DNA of 64,000 nucleotides. Origin: Clostridiales bacterium. GTDB lineage: Bacteria > Bacillota > Clostridia > TANB77 > CAG-508. Shown here piece by piece: positions 23,621-41,667 of the stretch; within the stretch, counting starts at the first letter, position 1; each line of letters opens with the position of its first letter. The notes beneath the pieces are model-generated. The model was not told the DNA's origin, searched no databases, and was given only the letters and a program-made list of their open reading frames with translations. A program made the translations under genes and the position numbers. The DNA lies in contig DNVW01000016.1 of assembly GCA_003507395.1 (NCBI GenBank), positions 12,726 to 76,725 of the forward strand, read 5' to 3'.

Positions 23621-23718
23621 GTGCCAATAGGGACGGGGAATTTTGGCACAAAAAATTTTAATTTAACAAAAAGCGAGTGAAAATGAAATTTCACTCGTTC
23701 TGGCGCAGATGGGCTTAA
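23621..23718. repeat. ~97-bp att-proximal repeat A. It consists of the GTGCCAATAGGGACGGGGAATTTTGGCAC hairpin, a CGAGTGAAA-ATGAAA-TTTCACTCG hairpin, and a degenerate tRNA-Leu 3' core (tggCgcagatgg at 23701-23712).
   Basis: It is ~96 percent identical to 29747-29844. It is preceded by a 10-bp tandem duplication, gtgccaatag x2. Confidence 0.7.
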
Positions 23719-23815
23719 ATTTTTACTCATCTTTTCTTACACCTTCAGGCTTTTTCAAATTTCGTATCTTTGTCCCGACATTGTCGGGAGATATTTTCTA
23801 TTCAATTATTTATTA

Positions 23816-24121
23816 TTATTCTACTTCGATTATCTTATTATTTTCTAGTAGTTTTTCATATTTCTCGTTCATCTTGTCCATATATTCTGTGTATTTATAC
23901 ATTTGTTTTTTCTGATGATAATCAAATATATCTCCATAAATATTAATTGTAGTTTGAATATTAGCATGTCCTAGAACTTTTTGCAATGTTGCTAAATCCA
24001 TACCAGCCTCAATACATCTAGTTGCAAAAGTATGCCTTAACATATGAACATGCACATCACTTGTCTTTTCATTTACATAGTGAACTCCTTTCGATTTAAG
24101 TTTGTTTTGTAAAGTTACCAT
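23816..24121 (-). pseudogene. Tyrosine recombinase/integrase, C-terminal ~100-codon remnant
   Basis: [41 protein letters not shown] aligns to the C-terminus of the integrase at 29979-31427. The N-terminal ~380 codons are missing. Confidence 0.75.
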
Positions 24122-24123
24122 CT

Positions 24124-24152
24124 ATTGACATTATTTCTTTAAAATTATATAA
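24124..24152 (+). promoter_or_regulatory. Consensus sigma-A promoter (TTGACA-17-TATAAT)
   Basis: Seen directly in the sequence. It abuts the truncated integrase and points toward the 24291 gene. Confidence 0.55.
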
Positions 24153-24290
24153 TATAGATATAGTTATAAGATACTTGATACATCTTATTGAAATAGTATA
24201 GAGACTTAGTTGTTACAACTATATATAACATATTATTATAAAAGTCAAGTAGTTTTCTAAAATTTTATAAGATTTTTTATGAGGTGTGAA

Positions 24291-25226
24291 ATGATTAGAG
24301 AAGAAAAGATTGAATTTACTGCAAAATGGTGCAAGTACAGTAAATATATAATTGAAAAGAAAGACGATAAATATTACATATTACCAGATAAAAATGCAAA
24401 ACCAAGTACATATGATCCATTTGAAGTAAAAAATCAAATATTAAAAGATTTATTAGTAATGGGTAAAGAATCAGTTGGTAATGAAATGTATAAACTTGGT
24501 AATAAGGAAGTAACAATTGAAGCACAAAGTAAAATGGAAAAATTCCAAAATTTAGTGTTTGAATTTGTAAGTAATTATGGATTACTTGGTAATTTTAGAT
24601 ATCTGCCAGAAAATTATGAATTTATGGATAATGGAGATATCCCTGTAAATTTAGGATATAATACTTCTATAAGTGCATTGGAATTTGAAAAGAAATATTT
24701 TTGGAAAGATTCAAAAATGGACTGGTCAAGTACAATGAAAGCAAACGATTATCACAGAAATACTGGTCTTAATGATGATTTTGAACAAATTGAAGGAGAT
24801 AGACTTAGTGATGTAATTTTTTCAAAAAATTATGCTGAAACTATTGCAGAAATTATTAACTTTGCAACAATTATATACAATAAAAAGCTTTTAATTTGTG
24901 CATACTTATATGATGATGTATCAGAAGATATAAGACAAGTATATCAAGAAAGTATTACTGGAGATAGCTTAAAAAAGCCAAATATTTCATATAGTGCTGA
25001 AGATGGACAAATAAAATTCAAATGGAATTTTATGTCTTTAAGTGAAATAATAGAAATTATCTTACTTTTAAATGAAACATCTGGAAGAACTGAAGTAAAA
25101 CTATGTAAGCATTGTGGTAAACCATTTATTGCTGAAAACATTAAAGCTGAATATGACACTATACAATGTAGGAATAGAGAAAATATAAACAAAAGCAGAC
25201 AAAAGAAGAATAATTATATTGAGTAA
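24291..25226 (+). CDS. Hypothetical protein with a C-terminal CxxC...C Zn-ribbon (paralog of 32549-33481)
   Basis: It is clearly homologous to the element B protein (KYxKYxI...YYIxPDK...; C-terminal CKHCxKPFIAxN...CRN). The RBS is gaggtg. It was not recognised as a named family. Confidence 0.45.
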   Translation: MIREEKIEFTAKWCKYSKYIIEKKDDKYYILPDKNAKPSTYDPFEVKNQILKDLLVMGKESVGNEMYKLGNKEVTIEAQSKMEKFQNLVFEFVSNYGLLGNFRYLPENYEFMDNGDIPVNLGYNTSISALEFEKKYFWKDSKMDWSSTMKANDYHRNTGLNDDFEQIEGDRLSDVIFSKNYAETIAEIINFATIIYNKKLLICAYLYDDVSEDIRQVYQESITGDSLKKPNISYSAEDGQIKFKWNFMSLSEIIEIILLLNETSGRTEVKLCKHCGKPFIAENIKAEYDTIQCRNRENINKSRQKKNNYIE

Positions 25227-25250
25227 ATTAAAATTATTTGGAGGTTGAAA

Positions 25251-26246
25251 ATGGAAATTAATTATCCACCATATAAAATTACTAATAAAATGTTAAACTA
25301 TGTATCAGATATAATGAAAAAAATTGGAGAAACAAATTATTTTGAAAATTTAAATAGATATCCAGAATTAAGAAGAAAATCAAGAATTAAATCAATTCAT
25401 TCTTCACTTGCTATTGAAAATAATCAATTATCATTATTTCAGGTTGAAGATGTAATAAATGGAAAACCAGTAATTGGAGAACAAAAAGATATACAAGAAG
25501 TAAAAAATGCTTATGAAGCTTATGAACAAATTGATAAAGTAAATCCATATTCTGTAGATGATTTAAAGAAAATACACGGAATATTAACTTTCTTAATTGA
25601 AAAAGATGCTGGTAAATTTAGAAATCATGGCGAAGCAGTTTATGATGGAGATATACAAATATTTATGGCTCCTCCTTACAAAATGGTTCCTACATTAATA
25701 GATAACTTATTTAACTGGATGAATGAAGTTAAAAACACAATAAATCCACTTATTTTATCGTCTATATTCCATTATGAATTTGTTTTCATACATCCTTTTC
25801 ATGATGGAAATGGTAGAACAGCAAGGATATGGCAAACTGCAATCTTATCACATTGGGAAAAAGCATTTACCTACTTACCTATTGAAAGTATGATTAGAAA
25901 AAATCAAGAAGAATATTATAAAGCTATTCAAAATTGTAACAATGCAGGAGAATCAACAGAATTTATAGAGTTTATGTTAAAAATTATTGATGACACAATA
26001 GATGAATTGATGAACTCAAAAGAAATGAGAGATAAAGCTCAATTACTACTTTCTGATAATGAAATGAAAATAATTGAATGTATTAAAAGAAATGTTTTAA
26101 TAGGTGCAAAAGAAATAATTAAAGAAACTAATATTGCTGATAGAACAGTAAGAAGAATTTTAAAAAAATTACTAGATAATAATACCATTGAAACAATTGG
26201 AAAAGGTGAAAAGGACCCTAATAAAAAATATAAAATTATTGAATAA
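25251..26246 (+). CDS. Fic-family protein with a C-terminal winged-helix DNA-binding domain
   Basis: Fic motif HPFHDGNGRTARIW. The C-terminus is wHTH-like (IIECIKRNVLIGAKEIIKETNIADRTVRRILKKL). Confidence 0.75.
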   Translation: MEINYPPYKITNKMLNYVSDIMKKIGETNYFENLNRYPELRRKSRIKSIHSSLAIENNQLSLFQVEDVINGKPVIGEQKDIQEVKNAYEAYEQIDKVNPYSVDDLKKIHGILTFLIEKDAGKFRNHGEAVYDGDIQIFMAPPYKMVPTLIDNLFNWMNEVKNTINPLILSSIFHYEFVFIHPFHDGNGRTARIWQTAILSHWEKAFTYLPIESMIRKNQEEYYKAIQNCNNAGESTEFIEFMLKIIDDTIDELMNSKEMRDKAQLLLSDNEMKIIECIKRNVLIGAKEIIKETNIADRTVRRILKKLLDNNTIETIGKGEKDPNKKYKIIE

Positions 26247-26260
26247 TGGCATAGTACTGA

Positions 26261-26458
26261 CATAGTAATGGCAGAGTTAAAAGTTATTTTTACAACTTCC
26301 CGACCATTTTTGATGAGTATATATTAGAAAATGGTCATGTAGACTTAAATCATTTCATTCGTTTTTATGAAGAAAATAAATCTAAGTATATTATCATTGA
26401 TGAATATAATACTGAATTTACTCTAGATGAGTTCTTAAGGGAAGTAAATTTAAAATAA
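26261..26458 (+). pseudogene. Start-less C-terminal ORF fragment beginning at the TAATGGCAGAG junction
   Basis: A 65-codon open frame (...YFYNFPTIFDEYILENGHVDLNHFIRFYEENKSKYIIIDEYNTEFTLDEFLREVNLK*) has no Met and a stop immediately upstream. Confidence 0.35.
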
Positions 26459-26483
26459 ATGTAATTTATAAAGAGGTTTAAAA

Positions 26484-26747
26484 ATGGAATTAAAAGATTT
26501 AGAAAAAGAAATTGAAAATATTAAAACTAGAAATAAAAAAGTTGAATTAGATAAAAAATGGGAAACGAGCTTAACTAGAAAAATATGTATTTGTATATTA
26601 ACATATATAGTTGTAATTGTCTATTCATACATAGTAAGAAATTACTCTAATATACTTTTAAGCTCACTTGTCCCTGTTATTGGTTTTACATTGTCAACAT
26701 TATCATTAAAATACATAAGAAAAATATGGGAGAAGAATATAAAATAA
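26484..26747 (+). CDS. Small two-TM membrane protein, hypothetical
   Basis: Hydrophobic segments are present. No motif was found. Confidence 0.3.
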   Translation: MELKDLEKEIENIKTRNKKVELDKKWETSLTRKICICILTYIVVIVYSYIVRNYSNILLSSLVPVIGFTLSTLSLKYIRKIWEKNIK

Positions 26748-26769
26748 ATATATTTAAGAGGTATATAAA

Positions 26770-27294
26770 ATGTTATATGTAATTAGACATGGACAAGTTG
26801 ATACAAATATAAAAAATCAGGTTAATGGCTGGAACGAGGAAAAACTTAATTCAGTAGGAATACAACAAGCTATAAATGCAGGTAATCAGCTTAAAAATAT
26901 AAAAATCGATGTAGTATTTTGTTCACCATTATTGAGAACAAAACAAACCTACAATAATTTAAATATAAAAGACATTCCAATTTTTTATGACGATAGGATA
27001 AAAGAAAGGAATTCTAATAGTATGGTTTATGCTGATGTAGAAACATTAGATAATAATATTTGGTATGATGGAACAAAAAATATTATATATAAAGATTCTG
27101 AAGGATTTAAGAGTATAATAAATAGAACTGAATCAATATTAAATGATATAAAAAATAATTATAAAGACAAAAATGTATTAATAGTCACTCACGGAGATGT
27201 TTGTAAAGCTGTTTATTTATATTTCAATCCAAATACCCAAGACATTAGTAAATTCCAACAAAATAATTGTGAAATAGTTTGTTATAAATTTTAG
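26770..27294 (+). CDS. Histidine phosphatase family protein (phosphoglycerate mutase-like)
   Basis: N-terminal catalytic RHG motif (LYVIRHGQVDTN) and the THGDV second His motif. Confidence 0.65.
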   Translation: MLYVIRHGQVDTNIKNQVNGWNEEKLNSVGIQQAINAGNQLKNIKIDVVFCSPLLRTKQTYNNLNIKDIPIFYDDRIKERNSNSMVYADVETLDNNIWYDGTKNIIYKDSEGFKSIINRTESILNDIKNNYKDKNVLIVTHGDVCKAVYLYFNPNTQDISKFQQNNCEIVCYKF

Positions 27295-27302
27295 GGGTGT
27301 TT

Positions 27303-27962
27303 ATGGGTAAAAAAAAGAATATAATTTATACAATTTTTATTATGGTATTTTCAATTATATGTGGAATAATATCAAAAGATTATTTTTTAGGAACTATAAT
27401 ACTTGCGAGTGGACTTCTTAATTCTTACTATGCAAGTGTTGGCAAAATATATAATTACATATTCGGAGCAGTTTATTGTGCTTTAAGTGGTTATGTTTGT
27501 TTGAAAACAGGTTTATATGGAATAGCCATTTTATCTTTTGCAGTTTATTTTCCATCACAAATACATGGGTATTTTAGTTGGAAAAATAAAAAGAATGAAA
27601 ATAAGGAAGTTAAAGTTAGAGGTTTTACTTTAAAAAACTCAATAATAATTATTTCTTCTTGTATTATTGGAAGTTTATTATTAGGGCTATTATTAAGTAA
27701 AATACCAACTCAACAATTAGTCTTTTTAGATTCTAGCAGCAATATTTTAAATCTATGTGGCATAATCCTTATGAATTTAAGATTTAAAGAATGCTGGGCT
27801 GTATGGTTATTTAATAATACTGTTGATTTAATAATCTGGGTTGTTAATTATATGAATAATACAGTAAATAGTACAATGATGTTATTAGTTTCAATTGGTT
27901 ATTTATTAATAAATATATATGGTTTAATAAAATGGTATAAAAAAAGTGGGTATGAAATATGA
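27303..27962 (+). CDS. pnuC: PnuC-like nicotinamide riboside transporter
   Basis: A ~220-aa polytopic protein with a terminal W..Y..K-rich tail. It lies adjacent to a nicotinamidase-like gene. The assignment is by similarity of topology and sequence feel, not a strict motif. Confidence 0.5.
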   Translation: MGKKKNIIYTIFIMVFSIICGIISKDYFLGTIILASGLLNSYYASVGKIYNYIFGAVYCALSGYVCLKTGLYGIAILSFAVYFPSQIHGYFSWKNKKNENKEVKVRGFTLKNSIIIISSCIIGSLLLGLLLSKIPTQQLVFLDSSSNILNLCGIILMNLRFKECWAVWLFNNTVDLIIWVVNYMNNTVNSTMMLLVSIGYLLINIYGLIKWYKKSGYEI

Positions 27963-28273
27963 AATATTGTATGATTGAAGTTGCCTTTGGAATTAAGAAA
28001 GAAGCAAATAAAGCAGTTGATGAATTATTAAATAAAAGATTAGTTGCAAGTTGTCAAATATTAGAAAGTAATAGCATTTGGAATTGGAAACAAAAACGAG
28101 AACAAAGCAAAGAATATATAGTTTTAATGAAAACACAGTTTTATTTACAGAATAAAATATACAATGTAATTAAAAATATACATAGTTATGAGTGTTTTGA
28201 GTTCGCTGTTTTTGAATTAAGCAGTTGTAATGAAGATTATTTAAATTGGATAGAATCAGAAACAAATAAATAA
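27959..28273 (+). CDS. cutA: CutA1-like divalent-cation tolerance protein
   Basis: VASCQIL...IWNWKQ...EYIVLMKTQ...IHSYECFEF...YLNWIESET matches the CutA signature pattern. Confidence 0.6.
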   Translation: MKYCMIEVAFGIKKEANKAVDELLNKRLVASCQILESNSIWNWKQKREQSKEYIVLMKTQFYLQNKIYNVIKNIHSYECFEFAVFELSSCNEDYLNWIESETNK

Positions 28274-28289
28274 TTGAGGAGAATAATAA

Positions 28290-28772
28290 ATGAATAGATT
28301 ATTATTAGTAATAGATGTTCAAAATGATTTTATAAATGAGCATACAAAAAATATTTTAACAAAAATAAAAGAATTAGTGGATTCAAATAAATATGATTTA
28401 ACTGCTTTTACTAGATTTATCAATGATGAAAATAGCATTTGGTATAAAAAATTAAATTATAAAGGCTGTATGACTAAAGAAGGACAAGCAATTGCTATTA
28501 ATACTAAAAACAATAAAGTATTTGATAAAAACATATATACTGCAGTAAATGATGAATTGAAAAAATATATTCAAAAAAATAATATTTCTAAAATATATTT
28601 ATGTGGCTTTGATACAGATGCTTGTGTTCAAAAAACTGCTATTGATTTATTTGAACAAAACTATGATGTATATGTTTTAAAAGATTATTGCATGAGCCAT
28701 TTAGGTAAGGAAACTCATGATTTTCATATAAATAATCTTGCAAGATTAATAGGAAAAGATAGAATTATTTAA
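28290..28772 (+). CDS. Isochorismatase-family hydrolase (nicotinamidase PncA-like)
   Basis: LLVIDVQNDF and the catalytic Cys context CGFDTDACV are present. Confidence 0.7.
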   Translation: MNRLLLVIDVQNDFINEHTKNILTKIKELVDSNKYDLTAFTRFINDENSIWYKKLNYKGCMTKEGQAIAINTKNNKVFDKNIYTAVNDELKKYIQKNNISKIYLCGFDTDACVQKTAIDLFEQNYDVYVLKDYCMSHLGKETHDFHINNLARLIGKDRII

Positions 28773-28773
28773 G

Positions 28774-28796
28774 CACTTCAAATTGAAGTGTTTTTT
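28774..28796 (+). terminator. Terminator (cacttcaa-a-ttgaagtg followed by a T6 run)
   Basis: It belongs to the same CTTCNNATTGAAG palindrome family as 2860 and 4901. Confidence 0.6.
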
Positions 28797-28830
28797 AGTT
28801 TAGATCTTCACATAATAGGAAAAGCTGAAT

Positions 28831-28859
28831 TTGCAAAAATTCACATAATGTGGTATAAT
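28831..28859 (+). promoter_or_regulatory. Consensus promoter TTGCAA-17-TGgTATAAT (extended -10)
   Basis: Seen directly in the sequence. It drives the GC-rich ORF. Confidence 0.55.
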
Positions 28860-28936
28860 TATATTGTATCACGTAAGTGAACATATCAAAAGTCCCTAAA
28901 TGGGCAATGCTTGCAATGCAAGCAAAAGGAGTCAGC

Positions 28937-29599
28937 ATGAGTAACGAAATCGCTAACAACGCATCCTTCATCTTTGCAGGTAAGAAGCCGAAATTCTTAA
29001 ATCTCGTGTACATTTCTTGTGAAGGCGACATTCAGAAACTTCCTGAAGATGTTCGGACTGCAGTTTCGCTGGAACCAGGAGGAGCAATCCGCGTAGAATC
29101 CAGAGAATATGCAAATGGAGAATTGATTCCCCTTCCTGCATACATCGCTTGGGAAAAGGAGGACAAGGACAAAGAAAGATGTCCTCATGGTTGGAATCTT
29201 TGGAACAAGGCGAATGCTTCCGCACAGCTTTCCGAAGGATTCCTCGAAGAAGTTGATGGTAAATTCCGTCAGACGAAGATAGTGCCCCTTAAAGCACAAC
29301 TCTTCACTGGTGAAATTCCCGAAATCTTTCTCGAGATGCCCCGTTTTGATGGGCAGGTAACCGTTGAAAACGGAAATCTGTTTATCAAGACTCCGTGGGG
29401 GATTTCCAATTGTAAAGCTGGTAACGGTTTTGCAATTGTATATGGTTTGGGAAATGACGCTGAAAAGCCTAAATTCTTCGGAATGCTTGATGGGAATATT
29501 CTTACCGTTGGAACAGCTTCGTTTGAAGATTACTACCACGTCACGGAGGATGGCAAGGTGATCGAAACTCTTCGCGAGTATTTTGAGAGCCTGCATTAA
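28937..29599 (+). CDS. Hypothetical protein encoded by a GC-rich (foreign-composition) cassette
   Basis: G+C and codon usage (GGC, CGC, CTG) are strikingly higher than the surroundings. The RBS is aaaggag. A long antisense ORF is typical of GC-rich DNA. No family was recognised. Confidence 0.5.
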   Translation: MSNEIANNASFIFAGKKPKFLNLVYISCEGDIQKLPEDVRTAVSLEPGGAIRVESREYANGELIPLPAYIAWEKEDKDKERCPHGWNLWNKANASAQLSEGFLEEVDGKFRQTKIVPLKAQLFTGEIPEIFLEMPRFDGQVTVENGNLFIKTPWGISNCKAGNGFAIVYGLGNDAEKPKFFGMLDGNILTVGTASFEDYYHVTEDGKVIETLREYFESLH

Positions 29600-29654
29600 A
29601 CCCCCAAATAGTCAACTGTGACTTGAGAAGATAGCTATCAACTCTAAAAACAGC

Positions 29655-29697
29655 CAAGAGCCAAGTCGTATACAAACGCTAGGCTCTTGTTTTATTT
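29655..29697 (+). terminator. Terminator (caagagcc ... ggctcttg followed by a T-run)
   Basis: An 8-bp stem and a T-tract at the end of the GC-rich block. Confidence 0.55.
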
Positions 29698-29746
29698 ATA
29701 TTTTAAGTCAGATTTAAACTTCTTTCAGATATAAAGTTAAATAATA

Positions 29747-29844
29747 TGCCAATAGGGACGGGGAATTTTGGCACAAAAATATTTTAATTTAACAAAAAGC
29801 GAGTGAAAATGAAATTTCACTCGTTCTGGTGCAGATGGACTTAA
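29747..29844. repeat. ~98-bp att-proximal repeat B (attR arm). It has the same two hairpins as repeat A and ends in a tRNA-Leu 3' core copy, tggtgcagatgg (29827-29838).
   Basis: The 12-bp core is identical to tRNA-Leu 3' end 41805-41816. Confidence 0.7.
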
Positions 29845-29894
29845 TAAAACTCCCATCTTTCTTAGTATTTCTCATAGATTTACAGCTTACCGTA

Positions 29895-29946
29895 TTTTTG
29901 GAACTTAGTTCCAAATTATTCTTATTAAATTTTTTAGTTCCAAATT
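29895..29946. repeat. TTTGGAAC / GTTCCAAATT 10-bp repeats (3 copies) just inside attR
   Basis: The same decamer recurs as direct repeats at 41645-41667, at the other end of the element. Confidence 0.45.
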
Positions 29947-29978
29947 TTCAATTTTATATCATATAAAATTCTATATTA

Positions 29979-31427
29979 TTATTTTAATTTTAAATATTCT
30001 TCTTCAAATCTTTCAAAGTTTTCTTCTAATATAGTATTTGTATCTTGCATATACTTTGTGTATTTTTGATTTAATTCCTTTTGTCTTAAATATGAGTAAA
30101 TATATCCATAAGTGTTTATAGTTGTAGTAATGTCTGCATGACCTAGAATTTTTTGTAATACTTCAATAGCAATTCCAGATTCTATACATCTTGTTGCAAA
30201 AGTATGCCTTAGCATATGAGTATGTGTATCACTTGATTTATAATTAACATAGTGTATTCCTTTTTTCTTACTAACTTTTTTATGTTTTAATGTTATAACT
30301 CTAAGTCCTGCATTTTTACATATTATTTTAAATGCTGAATTAACTTGTCCATCAGTATAAAAGTTGCCACTAGGTTTAGAAAATAATACATCATATTTAT
30401 TTTCTTTGTATTGTTCTAATGCTTTTTGTATCACTGGTACTGCTAAAGGTGTAAGATCTATTGTTCTTAATCCATTTTTAGTTTTAGTTATATCTCCAAT
30501 TACAACTTTATTGTTTATATCTTTTGTCAATGTTCTTCTAACATTAATGCTTCCAATATTTCCTACAATATTTATATCACTAGGTCTTAATGCAAGTATT
30601 TCTCCTATTCTCATTCCAGTATATAAAGCAATTAGTAATATTAGCTTATATTTTGATTTATGAGTTTTTAGATATTCTGTTAAAACATATTCTTCTTTTC
30701 TGGTAAAAGCATCAACCTTTTTATCTTCTTTAAAACTCTCTGGCTTTTTAATTCCCTCTCCAATTAAAAATGGATTTTTTTGAATAATACCATTTGCATA
30801 AGCAATAGAAAAAGCATTTTTAATTTTACTATAATATTTGTCTATTGAAGAATTAGATTTTGCTCGTTCACTTTCTAAATATTGTTTTATCTGGTTAGCT
30901 GTAACATTCTGTATTGGAATATTTGCGAATTTATAATTTCCAATTGCTTTTATAGTTTGCATATGCCTATTATAAGTGTTTGGTTTAATTTCCTTGTTTC
31001 TTACTCTTTTGGTTTCGTATGATTCACATATTGAAACAATAGTTGCATCTTTCTCTTTAGTTTTCTCAGTTTTCCCATGAATAGAAACATCTTGGATATA
31101 TTCAAGCATTTTATTTAAGGCTTCTTCTTTTGTTTTTCCATTAAATTGCATCCTATTTGTATCTTTTGTTGTGGATTTTCTGCCATTTGTTAAAAGCTCT
31201 ACTTTGAATTTGGGATAAATATAGAATTTATCGCAATGTTCTTTATCTTTACAATTATTGCAATCTTCACATTCTTTCATTTTGAATAGCTTTTTTCTAT
31301 TAGCACAAAATTCTTTGTGATTACAATTACTACAAGTAGGGCATATTGGTCTATCATTGGCTTTTCTTTTATCTTTAGTAGTATACTCGTGTACAGAATA
31401 GTCTTTGCCTTCAACTAAAGTTTTCAA
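29979..31427 (-). CDS. int: Tyrosine-type site-specific integrase with a Cys-rich N-terminal extension
   Basis: R..HxxR..Y catalytic region ([10 protein letters not shown] ... TINTYGYIY) and multiple CxxC motifs at the N-terminus. Confidence 0.85.
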   Translation of the reverse strand: MKTLVEGKDYSVHEYTTKDKRKANDRPICPTCSNCNHKEFCANRKKLFKMKECEDCNNCKDKEHCDKFYIYPKFKVELLTNGRKSTTKDTNRMQFNGKTKEEALNKMLEYIQDVSIHGKTEKTKEKDATIVSICESYETKRVRNKEIKPNTYNRHMQTIKAIGNYKFANIPIQNVTANQIKQYLESERAKSNSSIDKYYSKIKNAFSIAYANGIIQKNPFLIGEGIKKPESFKEDKKVDAFTRKEEYVLTEYLKTHKSKYKLILLIALYTGMRIGEILALRPSDINIVGNIGSINVRRTLTKDINNKVVIGDITKTKNGLRTIDLTPLAVPVIQKALEQYKENKYDVLFSKPSGNFYTDGQVNSAFKIICKNAGLRVITLKHKKVSKKKGIHYVNYKSSDTHTHMLRHTFATRCIESGIAIEVLQKILGHADITTTINTYGYIYSYLRQKELNQKYTKYMQDTNTILEENFERFEEEYLKLK

Positions 31428-31580
31428 ATTTCTTCCTCCTTTAAAAAATTTAAAGGAATACCTTGTCCGTTTTTCATCTCTTGTGATATAATCATTAAAG
31501 AGATAACGAAAAGATATCCCATCATTTCGGTCTAATCTCTGTTAGAGAATTTAGAAGTTCCTTTTCTAAGTTCTCATTTT

Positions 31581-31796
31581 TTATCTTAATGTTATAGATT
31601 TTGAATAGTCGTGTCTTTCCTTTAGAAATTCTTTAAAAGCATCTGCTTCAATCCACCAACTTCTACCAACTCTTTGAGCAGGGAATTCATTATTGTTAAA
31701 TAATTCTAGTCCTTTCTTTGGACCAATTTTTAACAACTGGCATACATCTTTTAAAGAATATACTTTCATTCCAGCAAGTTCTTGCATAAATATCAC
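31581..31796 (-). CDS. xis: Excisionase-family HTH DNA-binding protein
   Basis: KVYSLKDVCQLLKIGPKKGLELFNNNEFPAQRVGRSWWI matches the excisionase/MerR-like HTH pattern (RxWRI). Confidence 0.55.
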   Translation of the reverse strand: MIFMQELAGMKVYSLKDVCQLLKIGPKKGLELFNNNEFPAQRVGRSWWIEADAFKEFLKERHDYSKSITLR

Positions 31797-31850
31797 TCCT
31801 TTCGCTTTAAAATTTGGTGCAAAAAATACCTCATCACTAAAGATGGGGTA

Positions 31851-32300
31851 TTACCTTACTTGTTCTTTATAAAATCTTTTTACTTTTCTTTTGTATTTTT
31901 TTGGTAAAACATATGAAGTTTTTATTTTATCGTCTAATATTAAATTTCCGTCATTATCTTGTTTATAAACACTTATATTTGATTTTACAAATGCATCAGT
32001 AGAAATTCCAAAAGAATGTCTAGACATTTGCCTTGCATCACTATCTAATAAAGCCTGTAGTTTTTCGTAATCTTCTTTATCAGATTTATCTTTTTTTCTT
32101 TCATAAGTTTCTAAATATTCTTTATTATATTTAGCTTTTCTTAATTTTGCTTCTTGATGTCTTCTTTGCTTTTCTTCTGGATATCTATCATCATTTCTAA
32201 CAACTTTTGAAACATATTCGCTACTCACTTTAAAAAACTCTGCAATATCTTTTTGCTTCATATGCTCTTCAAAATACATTTTTAAGATTTCTTCTACCAT
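31851..32300 (-). CDS. Small HTH-containing protein (sigma-70 region 4-like), hypothetical regulator
   Basis: N-terminal KQKDIAEFFKVSSEYVSKV helix-turn-helix and a basic C-terminus. Confidence 0.35.
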   Translation of the reverse strand: MVEEILKMYFEEHMKQKDIAEFFKVSSEYVSKVVRNDDRYPEEKQRRHQEAKLRKAKYNKEYLETYERKKDKSDKEDYEKLQALLDSDARQMSRHSFGISTDAFVKSNISVYKQDNDGNLILDDKIKTSYVLPKKYKRKVKRFYKEQVR

Positions 32301-32548
32301 TTTTTACCTCCTTTCTTGGTTGATTTTTATACTTGCTAAATTTTAAGCATAATAATCCTATATATATTGTACTTACAAATTTTGCAAAAATTATTGCTTT
32401 TATTTACTTTATGTAGTACAATTTAAGTATGATAAAGTATCTAGCAACAATCTATGTTAATAGCTAAGCACACTAAAATAATAACATAGTAATTTTTGAA
32501 AGTCAACAACTTTTTTAAAATTTTTTAAGAAATTAGGGGGAAATTATA

Positions 32549-33481
32549 ATGATTAAGGAAAAGAATCCCAATTATAAAGGGCTTTGGGCTAAATATAAAA
32601 AATATGAAATTTTAAAAATAAATAATGAATACTATATTAGACCAGATAAAAAAGCTTCTTATGAAATCTATGATGTGTTTGATAAAGAAAAAGAACTTCT
32701 TGTAGATTTTCTTTTAATTGGTAGAGAAGCTATGAATTATGCAGATATAAATGATGCTAATTGTGATTTAATGTCTACAGAAACTAAATATCAAGATATG
32801 ATTTTAGATTTTGTAAATAAATATGGTATGTTTGGAGAACTTACATATAGATTATTAAATACTCACATAATTTCATCTGGTAAAGCACTAACTCAAGGAT
32901 ATTCTAATATTGATGAAGTGTCTGCTAGTACATATATAAAACCATATTTTATTGGTAATGAAGATATACAAAGAATAGATTTCGATCATGGAGTTAATGA
33001 AGATATATTAAAATATGTATATGGCTCTGATAATCCAAATGGAGATTTATTAAATAGCTTTGATAAAGGCGAAGATTTTAGTATTGTATTTTCTAAATGC
33101 TATACTGAAAAAATAGCTAATATTTTAGTAATGGCTAGAGCTTTATATAGAATATTTAATTCAGTAGAAAATAGCTCTTGGACTGAAAATGAAGATAAAA
33201 AAGCAATATATCAAAAATATGCAAATATGTTTAACCCTAACAATGTAGCATTTAATTTTGATTTTGCAGATGAAAAAACATTTTTAAATTGGAATTTCAA
33301 TTCTCTATTCCAAGCTATTGAGCTAATACTTGCTTTTAATGAAACAAATGAAAGAAAAGAAGTTAAAATGTGTAAACATTGTTTTAAACCATTTATTGCA
33401 AAAAATTTAAATAGTGATTATGATACAGCAAGTTGTAGAAATGTAGCAAATGTTTATAGAAGCAGAGCAAAAAATAAATAA
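32549..33481 (+). CDS. Hypothetical Zn-ribbon protein (paralog of 24291-25226)
   Basis: It is homologous throughout to the element A protein. The RBS is aggggg. Confidence 0.45.
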   Translation: MIKEKNPNYKGLWAKYKKYEILKINNEYYIRPDKKASYEIYDVFDKEKELLVDFLLIGREAMNYADINDANCDLMSTETKYQDMILDFVNKYGMFGELTYRLLNTHIISSGKALTQGYSNIDEVSASTYIKPYFIGNEDIQRIDFDHGVNEDILKYVYGSDNPNGDLLNSFDKGEDFSIVFSKCYTEKIANILVMARALYRIFNSVENSSWTENEDKKAIYQKYANMFNPNNVAFNFDFADEKTFLNWNFNSLFQAIELILAFNETNERKEVKMCKHCFKPFIAKNLNSDYDTASCRNVANVYRSRAKNK

Positions 33482-33638
33482 ACTAAAAAAGCAAATAACC
33501 TTTAGACTAAATCTAAAGGTTACTTGAAATCAACTTGACCGTCTTTCAGGTCTAAATGTCTTATTTATTGAGTGTATTTCAACTCATAACAGAATTGCTT
33601 CTGTTAATATTATTATACTCAATTTATTAAAAAAAATC

Positions 33639-33670
33639 AACAAAATGTTAAAAATTTTTAACATTTTGTT
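33639..33670. promoter_or_regulatory. Perfect 32-bp palindrome (aacaaaatgttaaaaa|tttttaacattttgtt) overlapping the -35 region. Candidate operator.
   Basis: Seen directly in the sequence. A tataat lies at 33685-33690. Confidence 0.5.
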
Positions 33671-33719
33671 AAAAAATATGTTAATATAATGCTAATTTAG
33701 CTTTTAGGAGGCATAAACT

Positions 33720-34226
33720 TTGAATATAAATGATGAATTAAACAAACTAAATACAAACCAACAACAAGAATTAGAAAAATGGTTTGCTGAACAAATATTT
33801 AAATTAAATAAAGTAAATAAAAATGAACAACTAAACTATGTGCCATATGTTACTAGAAAACAAGTTGTATGGGTGGATTTTGGAGTAAATGTTGGTCAGG
33901 AATTAAATCATTCACACCCTGCTGTTGTACTTTATTCAAGGCCAAATGTTGGTACAGTTCTTGTTGCTCCACTAACAAGTAAATCCAACACATCTGATGT
34001 TGTTATTGATATTGGAGAAATAGAAAATTTTGAAGGGTTTTCATATTGTAAGATAGACCAATTACGAGCAGTAAGTAAATTAAGAATACAAACTAAAAAG
34101 CATGAAAATAAGTACTATAATAACTACAATAGAGAAACTGGAGAATATTCTAATCCAGAATTATCTACAGAACAAATGAATTTAATAGATAAAGCTATAC
34201 AAGAATTGAAATTTAAATCGAAATAA
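33720..34226 (+). CDS. PemK/MazF-like toxin-fold protein with a ~50-aa N-terminal extension (TTG start)
   Basis: VVWVDFGVNVGQELNHSHPAVVLYSRPNVGTVLVAPLTSK resembles the MazF/PemK core. There is a strong aggagg RBS 8 nt before the TTG. Confidence 0.5.
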   Translation: MNINDELNKLNTNQQQELEKWFAEQIFKLNKVNKNEQLNYVPYVTRKQVVWVDFGVNVGQELNHSHPAVVLYSRPNVGTVLVAPLTSKSNTSDVVIDIGEIENFEGFSYCKIDQLRAVSKLRIQTKKHENKYYNNYNRETGEYSNPELSTEQMNLIDKAIQELKFKSK

Positions 34227-34347
34227 ATAATGGCAAAGTTTTGGCAGAGTAATGGCAGAGCTTTATCTTACTGCTTAGATAAAAAAGCAGTAAGTTTAGC
34301 AGTATGAAATGACAAAGTATAATTCATTAAAGGAAAGGAAGTTTTTA

Positions 34348-34821
34348 ATGGAGAATATAGTAATTAGAAAAGCAATTTTGGAAGATGTTAGCTACATCCA
34401 AAATTTAAATAACGAATTATTTAAATTGGAAAAAGAAAACTATGACACAACTTTAGTTTTGAACTGGGCTTTAACAGAAGAAGGCAAAGATTATTTCGAA
34501 GATTTAATCAAAAATCAATATGTCATAGTCGCAACATTAGAAGATAAAATTATTGGTTATCTAGCAGGTTCAATAAATGAAAAAGGTAGTTATGAAGAAA
34601 TACAATATGGTGAAATTAATAATATGTTTATAAAAGAAGATTACAGACTATATGGCATTGGCAAAAAACTAATAAATAATTTTAAAAATTATTGCAGAAA
34701 TAATAATATCAGCAATTTAAAAGTGGTTGCAAGTTCAAAAAACAAAAATGCAATAGAGTTTTATAGAAAAAATGGATTTGATGATTTTAATTTAACTTTA
34801 ACTATGAATATTGGAGATTAA
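34348..34821 (+). CDS. GNAT-family N-acetyltransferase
   Basis: Acetyl-CoA binding motif (RLYGIGKKLINNF) and GNAT fold length. Confidence 0.7.
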   Translation: MENIVIRKAILEDVSYIQNLNNELFKLEKENYDTTLVLNWALTEEGKDYFEDLIKNQYVIVATLEDKIIGYLAGSINEKGSYEEIQYGEINNMFIKEDYRLYGIGKKLINNFKNYCRNNNISNLKVVASSKNKNAIEFYRKNGFDDFNLTLTMNIGD

Positions 34822-34824
34822 GAT

Positions 34825-35622
34825 ATGGATGGATTTTATGTAGGAGATATAATTGGCAATTCATATACTCACGAAAATGAGAAATATAACTTAAAAACAA
34901 AGGATTTTGAACTATTTACAAATAGAAGTAAATTTTCAGATGATACTATTCTATCTTTTGCAACTATATATTGGCTATTGCATACACATCATGAATCTAC
35001 TGAAATGATAACAGTTTTAAAAAAATTTTACGAAGAATACCCAGATAAAATTCCAACTATCTATGGAGAATCATTTGTAAATTGGATTACAAGTGTAAAA
35101 GATGAATACAGAAAATCGTCTGGAAACGGTGGTGCAATGAGGTCTTCTGTTATCGGATGGTATGCTAAAGATATAGAAGAACTTAAAAAATTAGTATATA
35201 AAGCAATTATGCCTACTCATAACGAAGAAGGAGCAATTAAAGCATCCGAAATCGTTGCCATTTCTATATTTCTATTTAAAAATAATTATACTAAAGATGC
35301 AGTATTGAATTATATTGAAAGTAATTATAATTATGATTTACATGAAAATATAAATTCATATAAAAACTATTACACATATACATCAGATGCAAAAGAAACT
35401 GTAAGACCTGCGTTAATTGCTTTCTTTAACTCGACTGACTATGAAGATAGTATTAGAAATGCGGTATCTTTTGGTGGAGATACAGATACTATTACTACAA
35501 TAAATTCATCAATAGCAGAAGCATATTATAAAGAGATACCTAAAAATATTTTAGAAAAAGCAATAAAATACTTACCAAGAGAATTCATTAATATATTAAA
35601 TGAATTCAAAAAATATATATGA
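34825..35622 (+). CDS. ADP-ribosylglycohydrolase (ARH/DraG family)
   Basis: FSDDT, GNGGAMR and GGDTDT metal-binding motifs. Confidence 0.75.
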   Translation: MDGFYVGDIIGNSYTHENEKYNLKTKDFELFTNRSKFSDDTILSFATIYWLLHTHHESTEMITVLKKFYEEYPDKIPTIYGESFVNWITSVKDEYRKSSGNGGAMRSSVIGWYAKDIEELKKLVYKAIMPTHNEEGAIKASEIVAISIFLFKNNYTKDAVLNYIESNYNYDLHENINSYKNYYTYTSDAKETVRPALIAFFNSTDYEDSIRNAVSFGGDTDTITTINSSIAEAYYKEIPKNILEKAIKYLPREFINILNEFKKYI

Positions 35623-35644
35623 TAAAAAATGTTAAAAGGATTTT

Positions 35645-37051
35645 ATGAATATGGAAGAATTGAAACAAATAATTGATAATAAATGTGTAGAATTTAAAGG
35701 GTTAAAAATATATACTGGATGGTTTTATGATTTTGCAGAGATGCTTTTACAACAAGGGTATACTCAAGAACAAATAAGTAATATATTAGAGCAGATAATG
35801 AGTACTGATTGTATGGAAAATATGAGTGGAAAAGGTATGATGAAGTATTTTGGAAACGTACAACCTGCTATTGATAATGAAAAAGCCTTTTTTGATTATA
35901 TAAAAAGCAAATTAGATATACAAAATCCAGAATACCTTGAAAGTGGATTACAATATGCATCACAAGAAACTAAAAATGTAGGAAATTTTATTGATGCTTT
36001 TATAAAATATGTTGTAATAACCAATTTCGAAGATTTGCAACTTCAATATAAAGACCAAACAACAGAACATTGGGAGCAAATGCTTGTTAGTTGTTGTTTG
36101 GGAAATTTTAGTTTAAGTACTATGCTATGTGAAGCCGAATCAGATAAAATATATTTTGATGAACTTCATACTAGAAAAAATTTAACAGGTACTAGAATTG
36201 GTGCTGTTTTATTTAAAAAATTAATGGAAAAAATACACAATGAATTCCCTGACAGAGATTTATATACATTAAGATTAAAAAAAGATAATGAAGGTGCTAA
36301 AAGATTTTATGAAAGAATGGGTGGAACAGTATATGACTATGGAGATGAATCACAATTTGGTGTAGTCTATAAAAAAGAAGATATGGAAGAATTATTTAAA
36401 AAAGAGGTCGTTCCTCCTACTTTATATCCTACTAAAAAAGAAGAATTTTTAAATAGTTTAAAAGTTAACATTACTAATAAAGAACCAGATCCATTTCCAT
36501 CAGATGAAGATATTATTGAAAAAATGGATATTAATGATAAGTTTTATAGTTTTGACATGGATGATATTGATAAAAAAATAAAGATTCCAAAGCTAGCCAA
36601 AAATGGAGAACAGTTATATTTATATCGTAGAAGTATAAGAAATAGACAATTAGGCTCTAGTAATTCTAGAATAGATTCACAATATTTTATTTTAAATAAT
36701 TCTGGACAAATTGTTGGCAGAGTTCCTGTTTCAGTTTTAGAGCCTTATTCATTAAGTATGGATTATTGGATACGAGATGAATTTCAAGGACAAGGCATTG
36801 GGACTGTGGTTTTAGAAGAAATAGTAAAACAAATTTACGATGGAAAAGAATTCGATGGAATAGACTGTATATCAGCTAAATTTCCAGAAGCAAATAAAAC
36901 ATCAATACAAAATATTAAATTAGAAATATCAGACGATAACGAAGCTAGTATTAAAATTGCTTCAAAAAATGGATTCAAAAAAGCAGGTGAACGATATTAT
37001 TCACTAACTTTAAATAACTTTCTTGAAAGAAATCAAGAAAGAGCCAAATAA
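35645..37051 (+). CDS. Protein with two GNAT-like acetyltransferase domains plus an uncharacterised N-terminal region
   Basis: Two acetyl-CoA motifs are present: LTGTRIGAVLFKKLMEK and FQGQGIGTVVLEEIVKQ. Confidence 0.5.
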   Translation: MNMEELKQIIDNKCVEFKGLKIYTGWFYDFAEMLLQQGYTQEQISNILEQIMSTDCMENMSGKGMMKYFGNVQPAIDNEKAFFDYIKSKLDIQNPEYLESGLQYASQETKNVGNFIDAFIKYVVITNFEDLQLQYKDQTTEHWEQMLVSCCLGNFSLSTMLCEAESDKIYFDELHTRKNLTGTRIGAVLFKKLMEKIHNEFPDRDLYTLRLKKDNEGAKRFYERMGGTVYDYGDESQFGVVYKKEDMEELFKKEVVPPTLYPTKKEEFLNSLKVNITNKEPDPFPSDEDIIEKMDINDKFYSFDMDDIDKKIKIPKLAKNGEQLYLYRRSIRNRQLGSSNSRIDSQYFILNNSGQIVGRVPVSVLEPYSLSMDYWIRDEFQGQGIGTVVLEEIVKQIYDGKEFDGIDCISAKFPEANKTSIQNIKLEISDDNEASIKIASKNGFKKAGERYYSLTLNNFLERNQERAK

Positions 37052-37078
37052 ATAACTGTATTTATTCGGCTCTTTTTC
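37040..37078. terminator. Bidirectional terminator (agagccaaataaata ... tatttattcggctct)
   Basis: A 15-bp stem with one mismatch, followed by a T-run. Confidence 0.6.
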
Positions 37079-37079
37079 T

Positions 37080-37859: not shown

Positions 37860-37882
37860 GTTTTCACTTCTTTCTAATACTT

Positions 37883-38413: not shown

Positions 38414-38488
38414 AATAATTATGACTATATATTACCATTTTTTACTCTTTTTATCAAGTAACTGAGAAATACAATTACTAAAAAAATA

Positions 38489-40118: not shown

Positions 40119-40284
40119 AAATTATCATCTCCAATCTCTAATATTTTTTTATAAAACTTTTCTAAAGTTTTGTTTAAAGTATATATTTTATAATTTGTAC
40201 TTTAAGAATTGTGCGGTAGTACAAATTCATGGCTTGCTTTATACATAAAAACAACAATTGTACTACCACACGCCAGAGTTATTT

Positions 40285-40635: not shown

Positions 40636-40679
40636 GAATTAGTTCTTTTAGTACAATTTCTTCAGCTCTATTTTTTATA

Positions 40680-41039: not shown

Positions 41040-41053
41040 TTTATAAATCCTCC

Positions 41054-41605: not shown

Positions 41606-41644
41606 ATTTTGTCCTTTCCGAACTTAATATGAAATAAACTAAAA

Positions 41645-41667
41645 AATTTGGAACTTTAATTTGGAAC
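41645..41667. repeat. AATTTGGAAC direct repeats (13-bp period), putative iterons or arm sites
   Basis: Two exact copies lie upstream of repA_N. The reverse complement recurs at 29908 and 29937. Confidence 0.45.

What the first reader, a model, noticed from the sequence alone, without database searches (positions are those of the whole stretch)
28831..29700. GC-rich single-gene cassette with its own consensus promoter and terminator, inserted at the attR junction
An ~830-bp block with roughly double the local G+C and foreign codon usage encodes one 220-aa protein of unrecognised family. It has a textbook TTGCAA-17-TGgTATAAT promoter, an AAAGGAG RBS and a hairpin terminator. It is placed between the end of element A cargo and the attR arm of element B. 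It is a clear recent horizontal acquisition from a higher-GC donor.
Basis: seen in the sequence. Interest (0 to 1): 0.6.

Follow-up and report, generated by a model that had tools for sequence, protein, structure and literature searches.

The report
Self-contained GC-rich orphan gene cassette
A roughly 1-kb foreign-looking block in a very AT-rich gut Clostridia genome is a complete, self-sufficient gene unit (promoter, leader, gene, terminator) for a protein of unknown family and unmatched fold; its relatives in other AT-rich gut Clostridia look just as foreign, so it is not a simple recent import.

Summary
Window 28831-29700 is the only G+C outlier in 64 kb (0.425 against 0.27, z about 6; GC3 0.43 against a median of 0.15). 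It holds a TTGCAA-17-TGTGgTATAAT promoter, an AAAGGAG RBS, a 220-aa ORF and an intrinsic terminator.

- The host is an uncultured human-gut Clostridia lineage ("Clostridium sp. CAG:798"-like).
- The cassette is the last gene of a decayed tRNA-Leu island. It lies 228 nt from the tRNA-Leu 3' end and occupies the same site in all sister strains retrieved, with or without element B.
- No GC-rich donor was found. Eleven further members examined in Clostridia (27-91% aa identity) are also GC-rich islands (0.35-0.58) in AT-rich DNA (0.22-0.33), and nine carry the same ACATAATRTGnTATAAT promoter.
- A 90%-identical copy lies beside a relaxase of an element-B-like mobilizable element. The cassette is therefore movable cargo.
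- The protein has no Pfam, NCBIfam, PADLOC or PDB match. Its AlphaFold model is confident (pLDDT 91) but has no fold neighbour. Distant relatives occur in Saccharibacteria.
- Its mRNA folds more stably than codon-shuffled controls.

Function is unknown. My best reading is a moron-like, constitutively expressed accessory cassette.

The parts
28766..29747 (+). Whole cassette block: the stretch shared at 90% nucleotide identity with contig L016, whose flanks are unrelated to those in the window.
   Evidence: blastn of the window against L016 aligns window 28766-29747 with L016 408-1385. The L016 flanks match only an att core plus another element's end on the left, and a relaxase 3' end on the right.
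28771..28793 (+). Upstream hairpin followed by a T-run. It is the terminator of the isochorismatase-family gene and would act as an upstream insulator. It lies inside the block shared with L016.
   Evidence: Terminator scan. Fold -9.9 kcal/mol, z = -4.1. A homologous hairpin is present in L016.
28831..28859 (+). Sigma-A-type promoter: -35 TTGCAA (28831-28836), 17-nt spacer, -16 TGTG (28849-28852), -10 TATAAT (28854-28859).
   Evidence: The 17-mer ACATAATRTGnTATAAT occurs exactly once in each of 33 loci, always upstream of the family gene. This covers nine of the other members examined, down to 38% aa identity.
28866..28936 (+). Inferred 5' UTR (about 71 nt) with three hairpins: a 5'-terminal one (28866-28882, GNRA loop), a CCC/GGG one (28892-28905) and a pre-RBS one (28908-28924). 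The RBS AAAGGAG at 28925-28931 is left unpaired.
   Evidence: Fold. The pre-RBS hairpin keeps its position, with both-sided changes at 6 of 6 pairs across lineages. A 5'-terminal stem is present, with different sequences, in most members. The transcription start is inferred, not measured.
28937..29599 (+). CDS for a 220-aa soluble, mildly acidic (pI 4.9), beta-rich protein of an unnamed family.
   Evidence: ORF. 29 clusters of close homologues and 40 representatives in 1.84 billion proteins. AlphaFold pLDDT 91. No Pfam, NCBIfam, PHROG, PADLOC or PDB match. pI.
29600..29697 (+). 3' UTR and intrinsic terminator (stem 29655-29689, then TTTTATTT).
   Evidence: Fold -24.8 kcal/mol, z = -3.9. The 3' UTR and terminator are conserved in L016, L017 and L029, with compensatory changes in the L029 stem.
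29761..29844 (.). Right 84-nt direct repeat of island A. It holds the tRNA-Leu 3'-end core TGGTGCAGATGG (29827-29838) and, on the minus strand, the tRNA terminator (29800-29823). This is context, not part of the cassette.
   Evidence: Repeat D2 with 23635-23718, 88% identity. In strains without element B the intact tRNA-Leu starts here.

Best explanation
Window 28766-29747 is an autonomous, moron-like expression cassette carried as cargo in the array of integrative elements at tRNA-Leu(taa).

What is shown.
- The unit consists of an upstream terminator hairpin, a near-consensus sigma-A promoter with a -16 TRTG element, a roughly 70-nt leader with a 5'-terminal stem and a pre-RBS hairpin, a strong Shine-Dalgarno sequence, a 220-aa ORF, a conserved 3' UTR and an intrinsic terminator.
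- It is the last gene of island A, a decayed integrase-less island, and lies 228 nt from the tRNA-Leu 3' end.
- It sits at that site in all retrieved sister strains of this uncultured human-gut Clostridia species, whatever element lies beyond it.
- Promoter, leader, ORF and terminator stay together as one unit in relatives found in other AT-rich gut Clostridia.
- A 90%-identical copy sits next to the relaxase of an element-B-like mobilizable element.

What is inferred.
- The cassette is transcribed constitutively and strongly wherever it lands. It would give an unusually GC-rich, stably folded mRNA and an abundant cytoplasmic protein.
- It spreads by riding on, and recombining between, integrative mobilizable elements and variable chromosomal sites.
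- Its foreign composition reflects an origin outside the AT-rich host pool. The window copy is now drifting AT-wards.

The protein's biochemical role is unknown. My low-confidence guess (about 0.2) is a ligand- or nucleic-acid-binding accessory protein of mobile-element origin that acts in phage or mobile-element conflict.
For: Anatomy and chance controls.

Same site in 10 of 10 long sister contigs, with element B (L008, L013, L014), without it (L006, L007, L009, L010, L011), or with other elements (L005, L012). Intact tRNA-Leu at the window-29827 equivalent in strains without element B.

Host identity comes from the names attached to neighbouring proteins' clusters ('Clostridium sp. CAG:798', 'Clostridiales bacterium' MAG).

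Within the species, core flanks are 99.4-100% identical and island A is 95.5-99%. The cassette is 99.3-100%, and its CDS is 100% identical in 13 of 14 loci. PnuC is broken in 3 sister strains and the isochorismatase-family gene is truncated in 2, while the cassette stays intact.

The unit travels together. Homology between the window and L016 is confined to 28766-29747. The L016 left flank holds the same att core, preceded by another element's end. Its right flank is the 3' end of a relaxase 94% identical to window 38506-38640.

The 17-mer ACATAATRTGnTATAAT lies upstream of the gene in 33 loci, covering nine of the other members examined. L034 and L040 have the same -35/-16/-10 layout without the exact 17-mer. 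Leader and terminator show compensatory changes.

Real protein: 29 close clusters with 62% mean column identity and an AlphaFold model at pLDDT 91.

Foreign composition in all Clostridia hosts examined. AT-ward drift on the window lineage is 10:2, against 2:7 on the L016 lineage, Fisher p = 0.009.

Mobile-element association of relatives: a Y1 transposase next to the gene in L026, Bro-N nearby in L003, a serine-recombinase element in L040.

Morons are defined as independent transcriptional units spread by horizontal transfer (PMC3594210, abstract seen).
Against: - No expression data. The transcription start, promoter strength and terminator function are all inferred from sequence.
- No donor lineage and no copy in a GC-matched context were found, so 'imported' rests on composition alone.
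- In the syntenic pair L017/L029 the two alleles differ at 45% of 4-fold sites. S>W and W>S changes are balanced (17:19 and 19:17) in hosts whose own 4-fold G+C is 0.04-0.06. Simple import followed by decay does not predict that.
- The family's coding mRNAs fold more stably than synonymous-codon shuffles: mean z = -2.7 against -0.7 for 16 control genes, p = 0.0009. This hints that nucleotide composition is itself under selection.
- The cassette has no recombinase or terminal repeats of its own, so its way of moving between contexts is undefined.
- No relative was found in cultured phages, PLSDB plasmids or IMG/VR. A phage origin is therefore unsupported beyond weak PHROG and BFVD hints.
- Sister loci were retrieved by exact protein match, so strains lacking the cassette could not be seen.
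Confidence: 0.62

Rival explanations
1. A one-off, recent horizontal insertion of a gene from a higher-GC donor, placed at the junction between element A cargo and element B's attR.
For: Composition and codon use are strongly foreign. The window lineage shows AT-biased substitutions, as expected after import. The cassette is more uniform among strains (99.3-100%) than the adjacent island A (95.5-99%).
Against: The site and sequence are the same in strains with no element B. The exact protein is in 1012 collection blocks. No donor was found: only 1 hit among 185,579 species representatives, itself a 26%-GC Clostridia MAG. All eleven other members examined in Clostridia hosts sit in AT-rich DNA. 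The cassette's uniformity equals that of the core genome (99.4-100%), so it is not evidence of recency.
Confidence: 0.12
2. The gene is a long-term resident of AT-rich gut Clostridia. Its high G+C is held by selection on the nucleic acid itself, for example for a very stable, highly structured, strongly expressed mRNA, or for escape from AT-directed RNases or silencers. On this view it is not a recent import.
For: GC excess is seen in all twelve members examined in Clostridia hosts, despite saturated synonymous divergence (57-80% of 4-fold sites differ). L017 and L029 share a locus with AT-extreme flanks, yet their alleles show balanced S>W and W>S change at 4-fold G+C 0.52-0.54. Coding mRNAs are more stable than synonymous shuffles: window z = -3.8, L001 -5.1, L003 -3.7, and family against controls p = 0.0009. 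The 5' stem, strong RBS and terminators fit a design for high, stable expression.
Against: No conserved RNA architecture was found in the CDS. The RNAalifold consensus is only -24 kcal/mol with a covariation term of -0.6. The L035 member at the same locus as L003 has decayed to G+C 0.35 and GC3 0.29. The window lineage is drifting AT-wards. Holding about 100 synonymous sites against extreme AT pressure needs strong selection in organisms with 1.4-Mb genomes. Distribution is patchy: 1 of 185,579 species representatives. In Saccharibacteria the relative is within the local G+C range.
Confidence: 0.22
3. The selected product is not the 220-aa protein but a structured RNA, or the 199-aa antisense ORF (28997-29596, minus strand).
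For: A 199-codon antisense frame is open. The region folds stably.
Against: The antisense frame is interrupted in most relatives, with longest open stretches of 126-177 codons in seven of the eight other members. It simply reflects avoidance of the TTA, CTA and TCA codons. Conservation is at the protein level, with saturated synonymous sites. AlphaFold pLDDT is 91. No Rfam family scored better than E = 0.78, and none reached its gathering score. No covarying consensus structure was found.
Confidence: 0.02
4. A so-far unrecognised antibiotic- or toxin-resistance determinant spreading among gut commensals. This is a sub-case of the best explanation that names the protein's role.
For: It shows what I recall as the usual signature of such genes: foreign G+C, own strong promoter, and identical sequence across very many gut metagenomes. 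It is cargo of mobilizable elements, and in L012 a transposon with serine recombinase, Mob_Pre and TnpV lies next to it. NCBI lists the identical protein under Holdemanella biformis, a different class.
Against: There is no similarity to any NCBIfam model. From my own knowledge, that library includes resistance-gene models. There is no similarity to any Pfam enzyme family. No obvious catalytic motif is conserved across the wider family. The family is diverse and sits at syntenic chromosomal sites in related species.
Confidence: 0.06

Closest known systems
Phage and mobile-element 'morons' (independent transcription units added to an element; Hendrix and colleagues; reviewed in PMC3594210)
   Same: One gene flanked by its own promoter and terminator, lying between unrelated genes of an integrative element next to its att site. 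Its composition differs from its neighbours and it is spread horizontally.
   Different: The carrier is a decayed tRNA-Leu island or mobilizable element, not a prophage. The promoter, leader and terminator stay attached to the ORF across members down to about 38% protein identity, which as far as I know has not been described for morons. The G+C deviation is upward by 15-25 points in all Clostridia hosts examined.
Cargo genes of integrative mobilizable elements and cis-mobilizable islands accreted in tandem at tRNA genes (described for Firmicutes by Guedon, Bellanger and colleagues; from my own knowledge)
   Same: Tandem elements share one att core (23701, 29827, 41805). There is an intact element with integrase, Xis-like protein, relaxase and RepA_N, and an integrase-less island bounded by att repeats. 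Cargo sits at the element ends.
   Different: The cassette is compositionally foreign even to the AT-rich elements that carry it. It also occurs at ordinary chromosomal sites in other species.
Integron gene cassettes
   Same: A single-ORF mobile unit next to a tyrosine recombinase gene.
   Different: It has its own promoter and a Rho-independent terminator rather than an attC site. The neighbouring recombinase is a tRNA-targeting phage-type integrase belonging to another element, and there is no cassette array.
PGDYG-type small phage proteins (Pfam PF14083, accession from memory) and uncharacterised phage proteins in BFVD and PHROGs
   Same: Weak structural resemblance of a roughly 70-residue beta sub-domain (Foldseek probability 0.6-0.96, TM 0.2-0.4). 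Four distant family members weakly hit phrog_18435 or phrog_27860. The motif 'PGEAYWVxYG' in distant members recalls 'PGDYG'.
   Different: No Pfam hit even at E = 10. No relatives in 50,697 phage records or in IMG/VR. The function of those families is also unknown.

Membership tests
Moron-like autonomous transcription unit | Own promoter immediately upstream of a single gene | tested here: met
   TTGCAA-17-TGTGgTATAAT at 28831-28859. The pattern occurs 2 times in 64 kb against 0.06 expected. It is conserved upstream of the gene in 33 loci. Activity was not measured.
Moron-like autonomous transcription unit | Own terminator immediately downstream | tested here: met
   Stem 29655-29689 plus a T-run, z = -3.9. 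The terminator is conserved, with compensatory changes, in relatives.
Moron-like autonomous transcription unit | Sits inside a mobile element between unrelated genes, and is present in some related elements but not others | tested here: met
   It is the last gene of island A next to the att repeat. A 90% copy lies between an att core and a relaxase in L016, whereas element B, which has a 94%-identical relaxase end, lacks it. The carrier is an island or mobilizable element, not a prophage.
Moron-like autonomous transcription unit | Nucleotide composition different from neighbouring genes | tested here: met
   G+C 0.443 against 0.21-0.28, and GC3 0.43 against 0.11-0.18.
Integron gene cassette | Promoterless ORF followed by an attC site, captured by an IntI integrase at attI | tested here: not met
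   It has its own promoter, and its 3' end is an intrinsic terminator. The adjacent integrase matches Phage_integrase plus SAM-like domains, targets the tRNA-Leu core and belongs to element B. attC was not searched with a dedicated model.
PGDYG protein family | Significant match to the Pfam model | tested here: not met
   No Pfam family for the window protein or for 30 relatives at E <= 0.01. No PGDYG model appeared at E <= 10 for six distant members and three C-terminal domains (one from the window protein). There is only weak Foldseek similarity.
Known anti-phage defence proteins (PADLOC-DB 2.0) | Match to a defence-system model | tested here: not met
   0 families at E <= 1.
Named bacterial protein families (NCBIfam 20.0) | Match above the curated cut-off | tested here: not met
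   The only hit is a chance one: YpeB, E = 0.12, 11 bits against a cut-off of 303.
Known RNA families (Rfam 15) | Match to a covariance model in the leader, CDS or 3' UTR | tested here: not met
   The best match in 28700-29900 has E = 0.78, and every match is far below its gathering score.

The most novel reading that the evidence does not exclude
The cassette family is a 'host-independent expression module'. On this reading an orphan protein with a new fold is kept together with its consensus promoter, stabilising leader, terminators and a deliberately GC-rich, highly structured coding mRNA. Selection, not recency of transfer, would then hold its synonymous sites 30-70 GC points above the extreme AT equilibrium of its hosts (host 4-fold G+C 0.04-0.06). 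That would be a clear case of sustained selection on mRNA composition or structure in a mobile bacterial gene. It would also flag the protein as important enough to justify that cost.
Probability: 0.2. Interest if true: 0.8.

Novelty: new variant of a known kind. Interest (0 to 1): 0.5.

Why it matters
Three points make this worth a follow-up.

1. The protein belongs to a very small family: 40 representatives among 1.84 billion. It has a confident predicted structure but no detectable fold or sequence relative. It is carried by a common human-gut bacterium in more than a thousand public assemblies. Its wider family is conserved in Saccharibacteria.

2. Horizontally acquired genes are usually AT-richer than their hosts (my own knowledge of the literature). 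Here a whole gene family is GC-richer than every Clostridia host examined. It keeps that composition through saturated synonymous divergence. That makes it a natural test case for separating amelioration from selection on mRNA composition and structure.

3. The conserved promoter, leader and terminator set is a ready-made strong expression platform for extremely AT-rich, hard-to-engineer gut Clostridia.

If it turns out to be simply a repeatedly imported passenger gene, the practical value is limited to annotating a new accessory family and the tRNA-Leu hot spot.

Tried and rejected
- Antisense 199-aa ORF: not conserved. It is explained by avoidance of TTA, CTA and TCA codons.
- Known RNA families: none.
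- Conserved RNA structure within the CDS: none convincing.
- Sequence families: Pfam, NCBIfam, PHROGs and PADLOC gave nothing for the window protein. Relatives gave only weak hits to PHROGs of unknown function.
- PDB by sequence profile: three profiles, nothing below E = 0.69.
- DNA and protein searches of INPHARED phages and PLSDB plasmids: no match.
- IMG/VR viral contigs: no relative for either clade. One alignment was too diverse to search with.
- Conserved partner gene: none. The 155-156-aa downstream genes of L001 and L017/L029 are unrelated to each other, and other neighbours differ.
- Terminal inverted or direct repeats of the cassette: a 9-nt AT-only inverted match at the window ends is absent in L016 (read by eye) and is treated as chance.
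- DNA mimic or anti-restriction idea from charge: the protein is only mildly acidic, net charge -10.
- 'Circular' island A: L022 and L023 join the right end of an island to a left end. The first 1 kb of L022 is unrelated to the window, so this is a tandem pair of related islands, not a circle.
- GC excess in Saccharibacteria: the gene there is the highest of 17 local genes but within their range, so I do not count it as an outlier.
Full report
**1.

G+C climbs from 0.21-0.29 to 0.39-0.46 between about 28800 and 29700 and then drops back. No other 1-kb bin in the 64-kb window exceeds 0.33. All 870-nt windows outside it have mean 0.271, sd 0.026 and maximum 0.341, giving z of about 6.

The ORF runs from ATG 28937 to TAA 29599 and encodes 220 aa. 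The longer GTG-initiated reading of 240 aa is not supported by the homologues' N-termini or by the position of the RBS.

Codon use is foreign. GC3 is 0.43, against a median of 0.152 for open frames of at least 200 codons. The highest such frame outside the cassette has GC3 0.189. Only one of 18 Leu codons is TTA.

The expression signals are as follows.
- Promoter: -35 TTGCAA 28831-28836, 17-nt spacer, -16 TGTG 28849-28852, -10 TATAAT 28854-28859.
- RBS: AAAGGAG 28925-28931.
- Terminator: stem 29655-29689 followed by TTTTATTT, z = -3.9.

Loose promoter-like matches are common in this AT-rich DNA: 18 found against 14.3 expected. The stringent pattern TTG-15N-TRTGnTATAAT occurs only twice in 64 kb, against 0.06 expected.

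**2. Where it sits**

The neighbours' protein clusters carry names such as 'Clostridium sp. CAG:798' and 'MAG TPA: Clostridiales bacterium', and lie on contigs of up to 1.46 Mb. The host is therefore an uncultured, small-genome, roughly 27%-GC human-gut Clostridia lineage.

A tRNA-Leu(taa) gene lies at 41805-41892 on the minus strand. Its 3'-end core, TGG[TC]GCAGATGG, recurs at 29827 and 23701.

Between 29827 and 41805 lies element B, about 12 kb long. It carries:
- a tyrosine integrase;
- an HTH_17 Xis-like protein;
- a PemK toxin;
- GNAT acetyltransferases;
- an ADP-ribosylglycohydrolase;
- a relaxase;
- a RepA_N protein.

Between 23701 and 29827 lies island A. It is bracketed by 84-nt direct repeats (23635-23718 and 29761-29844, 88% identical). 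It keeps only a remnant of an integrase (23928-24091, 76% identical to 30100-30263). Its cargo is a Fic protein, a histidine phosphatase, PnuC, CutA1 and an isochorismatase-family protein. The cassette is its last gene.

**3. It is independent of element B and present in every sister strain retrieved**

The exact 220-aa protein is indexed in 1012 blocks of the assembly collection. In all ten long contigs shown it follows the isochorismatase-family gene. What lies downstream of it varies:

| Loci | Downstream of the cassette |
|---|---|
| L006, L007, L009, L010, L011 | pyrophosphatase gene (window 42036), with the intact tRNA-Leu starting at the equivalent of 29827 |
| L008, L013, L014 | element B |
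| L005, L012 | other elements |

Across 14 sister loci DNA identity is as follows:
- core flanks: 99.4-100%;
- island A: 95.5-99%;
- the cassette: 99.3-100%;
- its CDS: 100% in 13 of 14 loci.

PnuC is reduced to a fragment in three strains and the isochorismatase-family gene is truncated in two. The cassette is intact in all of them.

One caveat applies. These loci were found through the exact protein or through close relatives, so strains without the cassette could not appear.

**4. What the protein is**

- No Pfam, NCBIfam, PHROG or PADLOC family matches.
- No PDB chain matches any of three sequence profiles.
- The family is tiny. There are 29 clusters among 5.8 billion and 40 representatives among 1.84 billion. 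Only one of 185,579 species-representative genomes carries it, a goat-rectum Clostridia MAG.
- With the 29-sequence alignment AlphaFold gives pLDDT 91 and pTM 0.63 for a mostly beta protein.
- The protein is soluble and mildly acidic.

A more distant clade of about 185 aa has at least 365 clusters. It occurs in Candidatus Saccharibacteria. A 261-aa version sits inside a roughly 5.5-kb serine-recombinase element that splits a Zip gene in another small-genome gut Clostridia.

No conserved neighbouring gene exists.

**5. The unexpected part: relatives in other AT-rich hosts look just as foreign**

I read the context of eleven further family members in Clostridia hosts. Their identities to the window protein run from 91% down to 27-38%. 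Composition is as follows:
- gene G+C: 0.35-0.58;
- gene GC3: 0.29-0.78;
- flanking G+C: 0.22-0.33;
- host G+C at 4-fold sites: 0.04-0.10.

No copy in a GC-matched genome was seen, except that the Saccharibacteria relative lies at the top of its local range but within it.

Nine of these members carry the 17-mer ACATAATRTGnTATAAT in the promoter. It occurs once per locus in 33 loci and once in the window. The other two members, L034 and L040, have the same -35/-16/-10 layout without the exact 17-mer.

Other shared features:
- most members have a stem at the 5' end of the inferred transcript;
- several have a hairpin just before a strong RBS, with both-sided changes at 6 of 6 pairs;
- the 3' UTR and terminator show compensatory variation.

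So promoter, leader, ORF and terminator persist as one unit across deep divergence.

**6. Evidence for mobility**

Homology between the window and contig L016 (91% aa, 90% nt) is confined to 28766-29747.

The L016 left flank carries the same tRNA-Leu att core, preceded by the end of another element as in L012. Its right flank is the 3' end of a relaxase 94% identical to element B's (window 38506-38640). The cassette therefore occurs in two different arrangements within tRNA-Leu element arrays.

Other members lie near mobile or variable features:
- next to a Y1 transposase (L026);
- near a Bro-N gene (L003);
- at variable chromosomal sites.

In two syntenic pairs the cassette protein is far more diverged than its flanks:

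| Pair | Flanking gene identity (aa) | Cassette protein identity (aa) |
|---|---|---|
| L017 / L029 | HSP33 89% | 77% |
| L003 / L035 | deaminase 70% | 35% (G+C 0.52 and 0.35) |

This pattern suggests allele replacement at a fixed site.

**7. Import or selection?**

Both readings have support.

For import followed by decay:
- the window lineage shows 10 S>W against 2 W>S changes, while L016 shows 2 against 7 (Fisher p = 0.009);
- the L035 copy looks ameliorated.

For selection on the nucleic acid:
- L017 and L029 differ at 45% of 4-fold sites, with balanced S>W and W>S changes, in hosts with 4-fold G+C of 0.04-0.06;
- the coding mRNAs of nine family members fold more stably than synonymous-codon shuffles. 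Mean z is -2.7, with the window at -3.8 and L001 at -5.1. Sixteen control genes from the same loci have mean z of -0.7 (Mann-Whitney p = 0.0009).

There is no conserved RNA architecture in the CDS, and no Rfam match.

I cannot decide between an unsampled mid-GC reservoir and sustained selection. I rate the first as somewhat more likely.

**8. Verdict**

- The feature is real and well delimited.
- It is best described as a moron-like, self-contained expression cassette for an orphan protein. It is carried as cargo in the tRNA-Leu integrative-element array and is long established in this species.
- Function remains unknown. My guess of a conflict-related binding protein carries about 0.2 probability.
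- Novelty: a new variant of a known kind.
- Interest is moderate (0.5). It rests on the orphan fold, the conserved travelling expression platform and the unexplained GC excess.

Noticed in passing
window 29827-41892: Element B is a roughly 12-kb integrative mobilizable element at tRNA-Leu(taa). It carries a tyrosine integrase (29979-31427, minus strand), an HTH_17 Xis-like gene (31581-31796, minus), a PemK toxin (33720-34226), several GNAT acetyltransferases, an ADP-ribosylglycohydrolase (34825-35622), an SDR, a relaxase (38489-39832, minus) and a RepA_N protein (41054-41605, minus). It is present in some sister strains and absent or replaced by other elements in others.
   Followed up: partly
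window 23635-29844: Island A is an integrase-less island bounded by 84-nt direct repeats (88% identical), with an integrase remnant at 23928-24091. Its cargo has an NAD-salvage flavour: PnuC, a nicotinamidase-like isochorismatase-family protein and a histidine phosphatase, plus Fic and CutA1. PnuC or the isochorismatase-family gene is broken in 5 of 10 sister strains. Contigs L022 and L023 show two related islands in tandem.
   Followed up: partly
window 26242-26276 and 34226-34260: A 35-nt repeat (86% identical) rich in AATGGCA motifs lies directly after the Fic gene and again directly after the PemK toxin gene. Its role is unknown.
   Followed up: no
protein of window 28937-29599: NCBI lists the identical 220-aa sequence as WP_418786069.1 'hypothetical protein [Holdemanella biformis]', an organism of a different class. 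This could be very recent cross-class transfer or a mis-assigned contig. It could not be checked with the tools available.
   Followed up: no
L040 8084-14444: A roughly 5.5-kb element with a large serine recombinase interrupts a ZIP-transporter gene in another small-genome gut Clostridia. It carries a distant 261-aa relative of the cassette protein, again GC-richer than its surroundings (0.41 against 0.28).
   Followed up: partly
L012 11095-18640: In one sister strain a further element lies between the cassette and element B. It carries a 985-aa metallophosphatase, TnpV, Mob_Pre and a large serine recombinase, which from memory resembles the Tn4451 family. This shows that the tRNA-Leu site is an accretion hot spot.
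   Followed up: no
window 15535-15563 (minus strand): The only other perfect TTG-15N-TRTGnTATAAT promoter match in the 64 kb. It lies just upstream of the start of the 982-aa SNF2-family helicase ORF (15651-18599, plus strand) but on the opposite strand.
   Followed up: no
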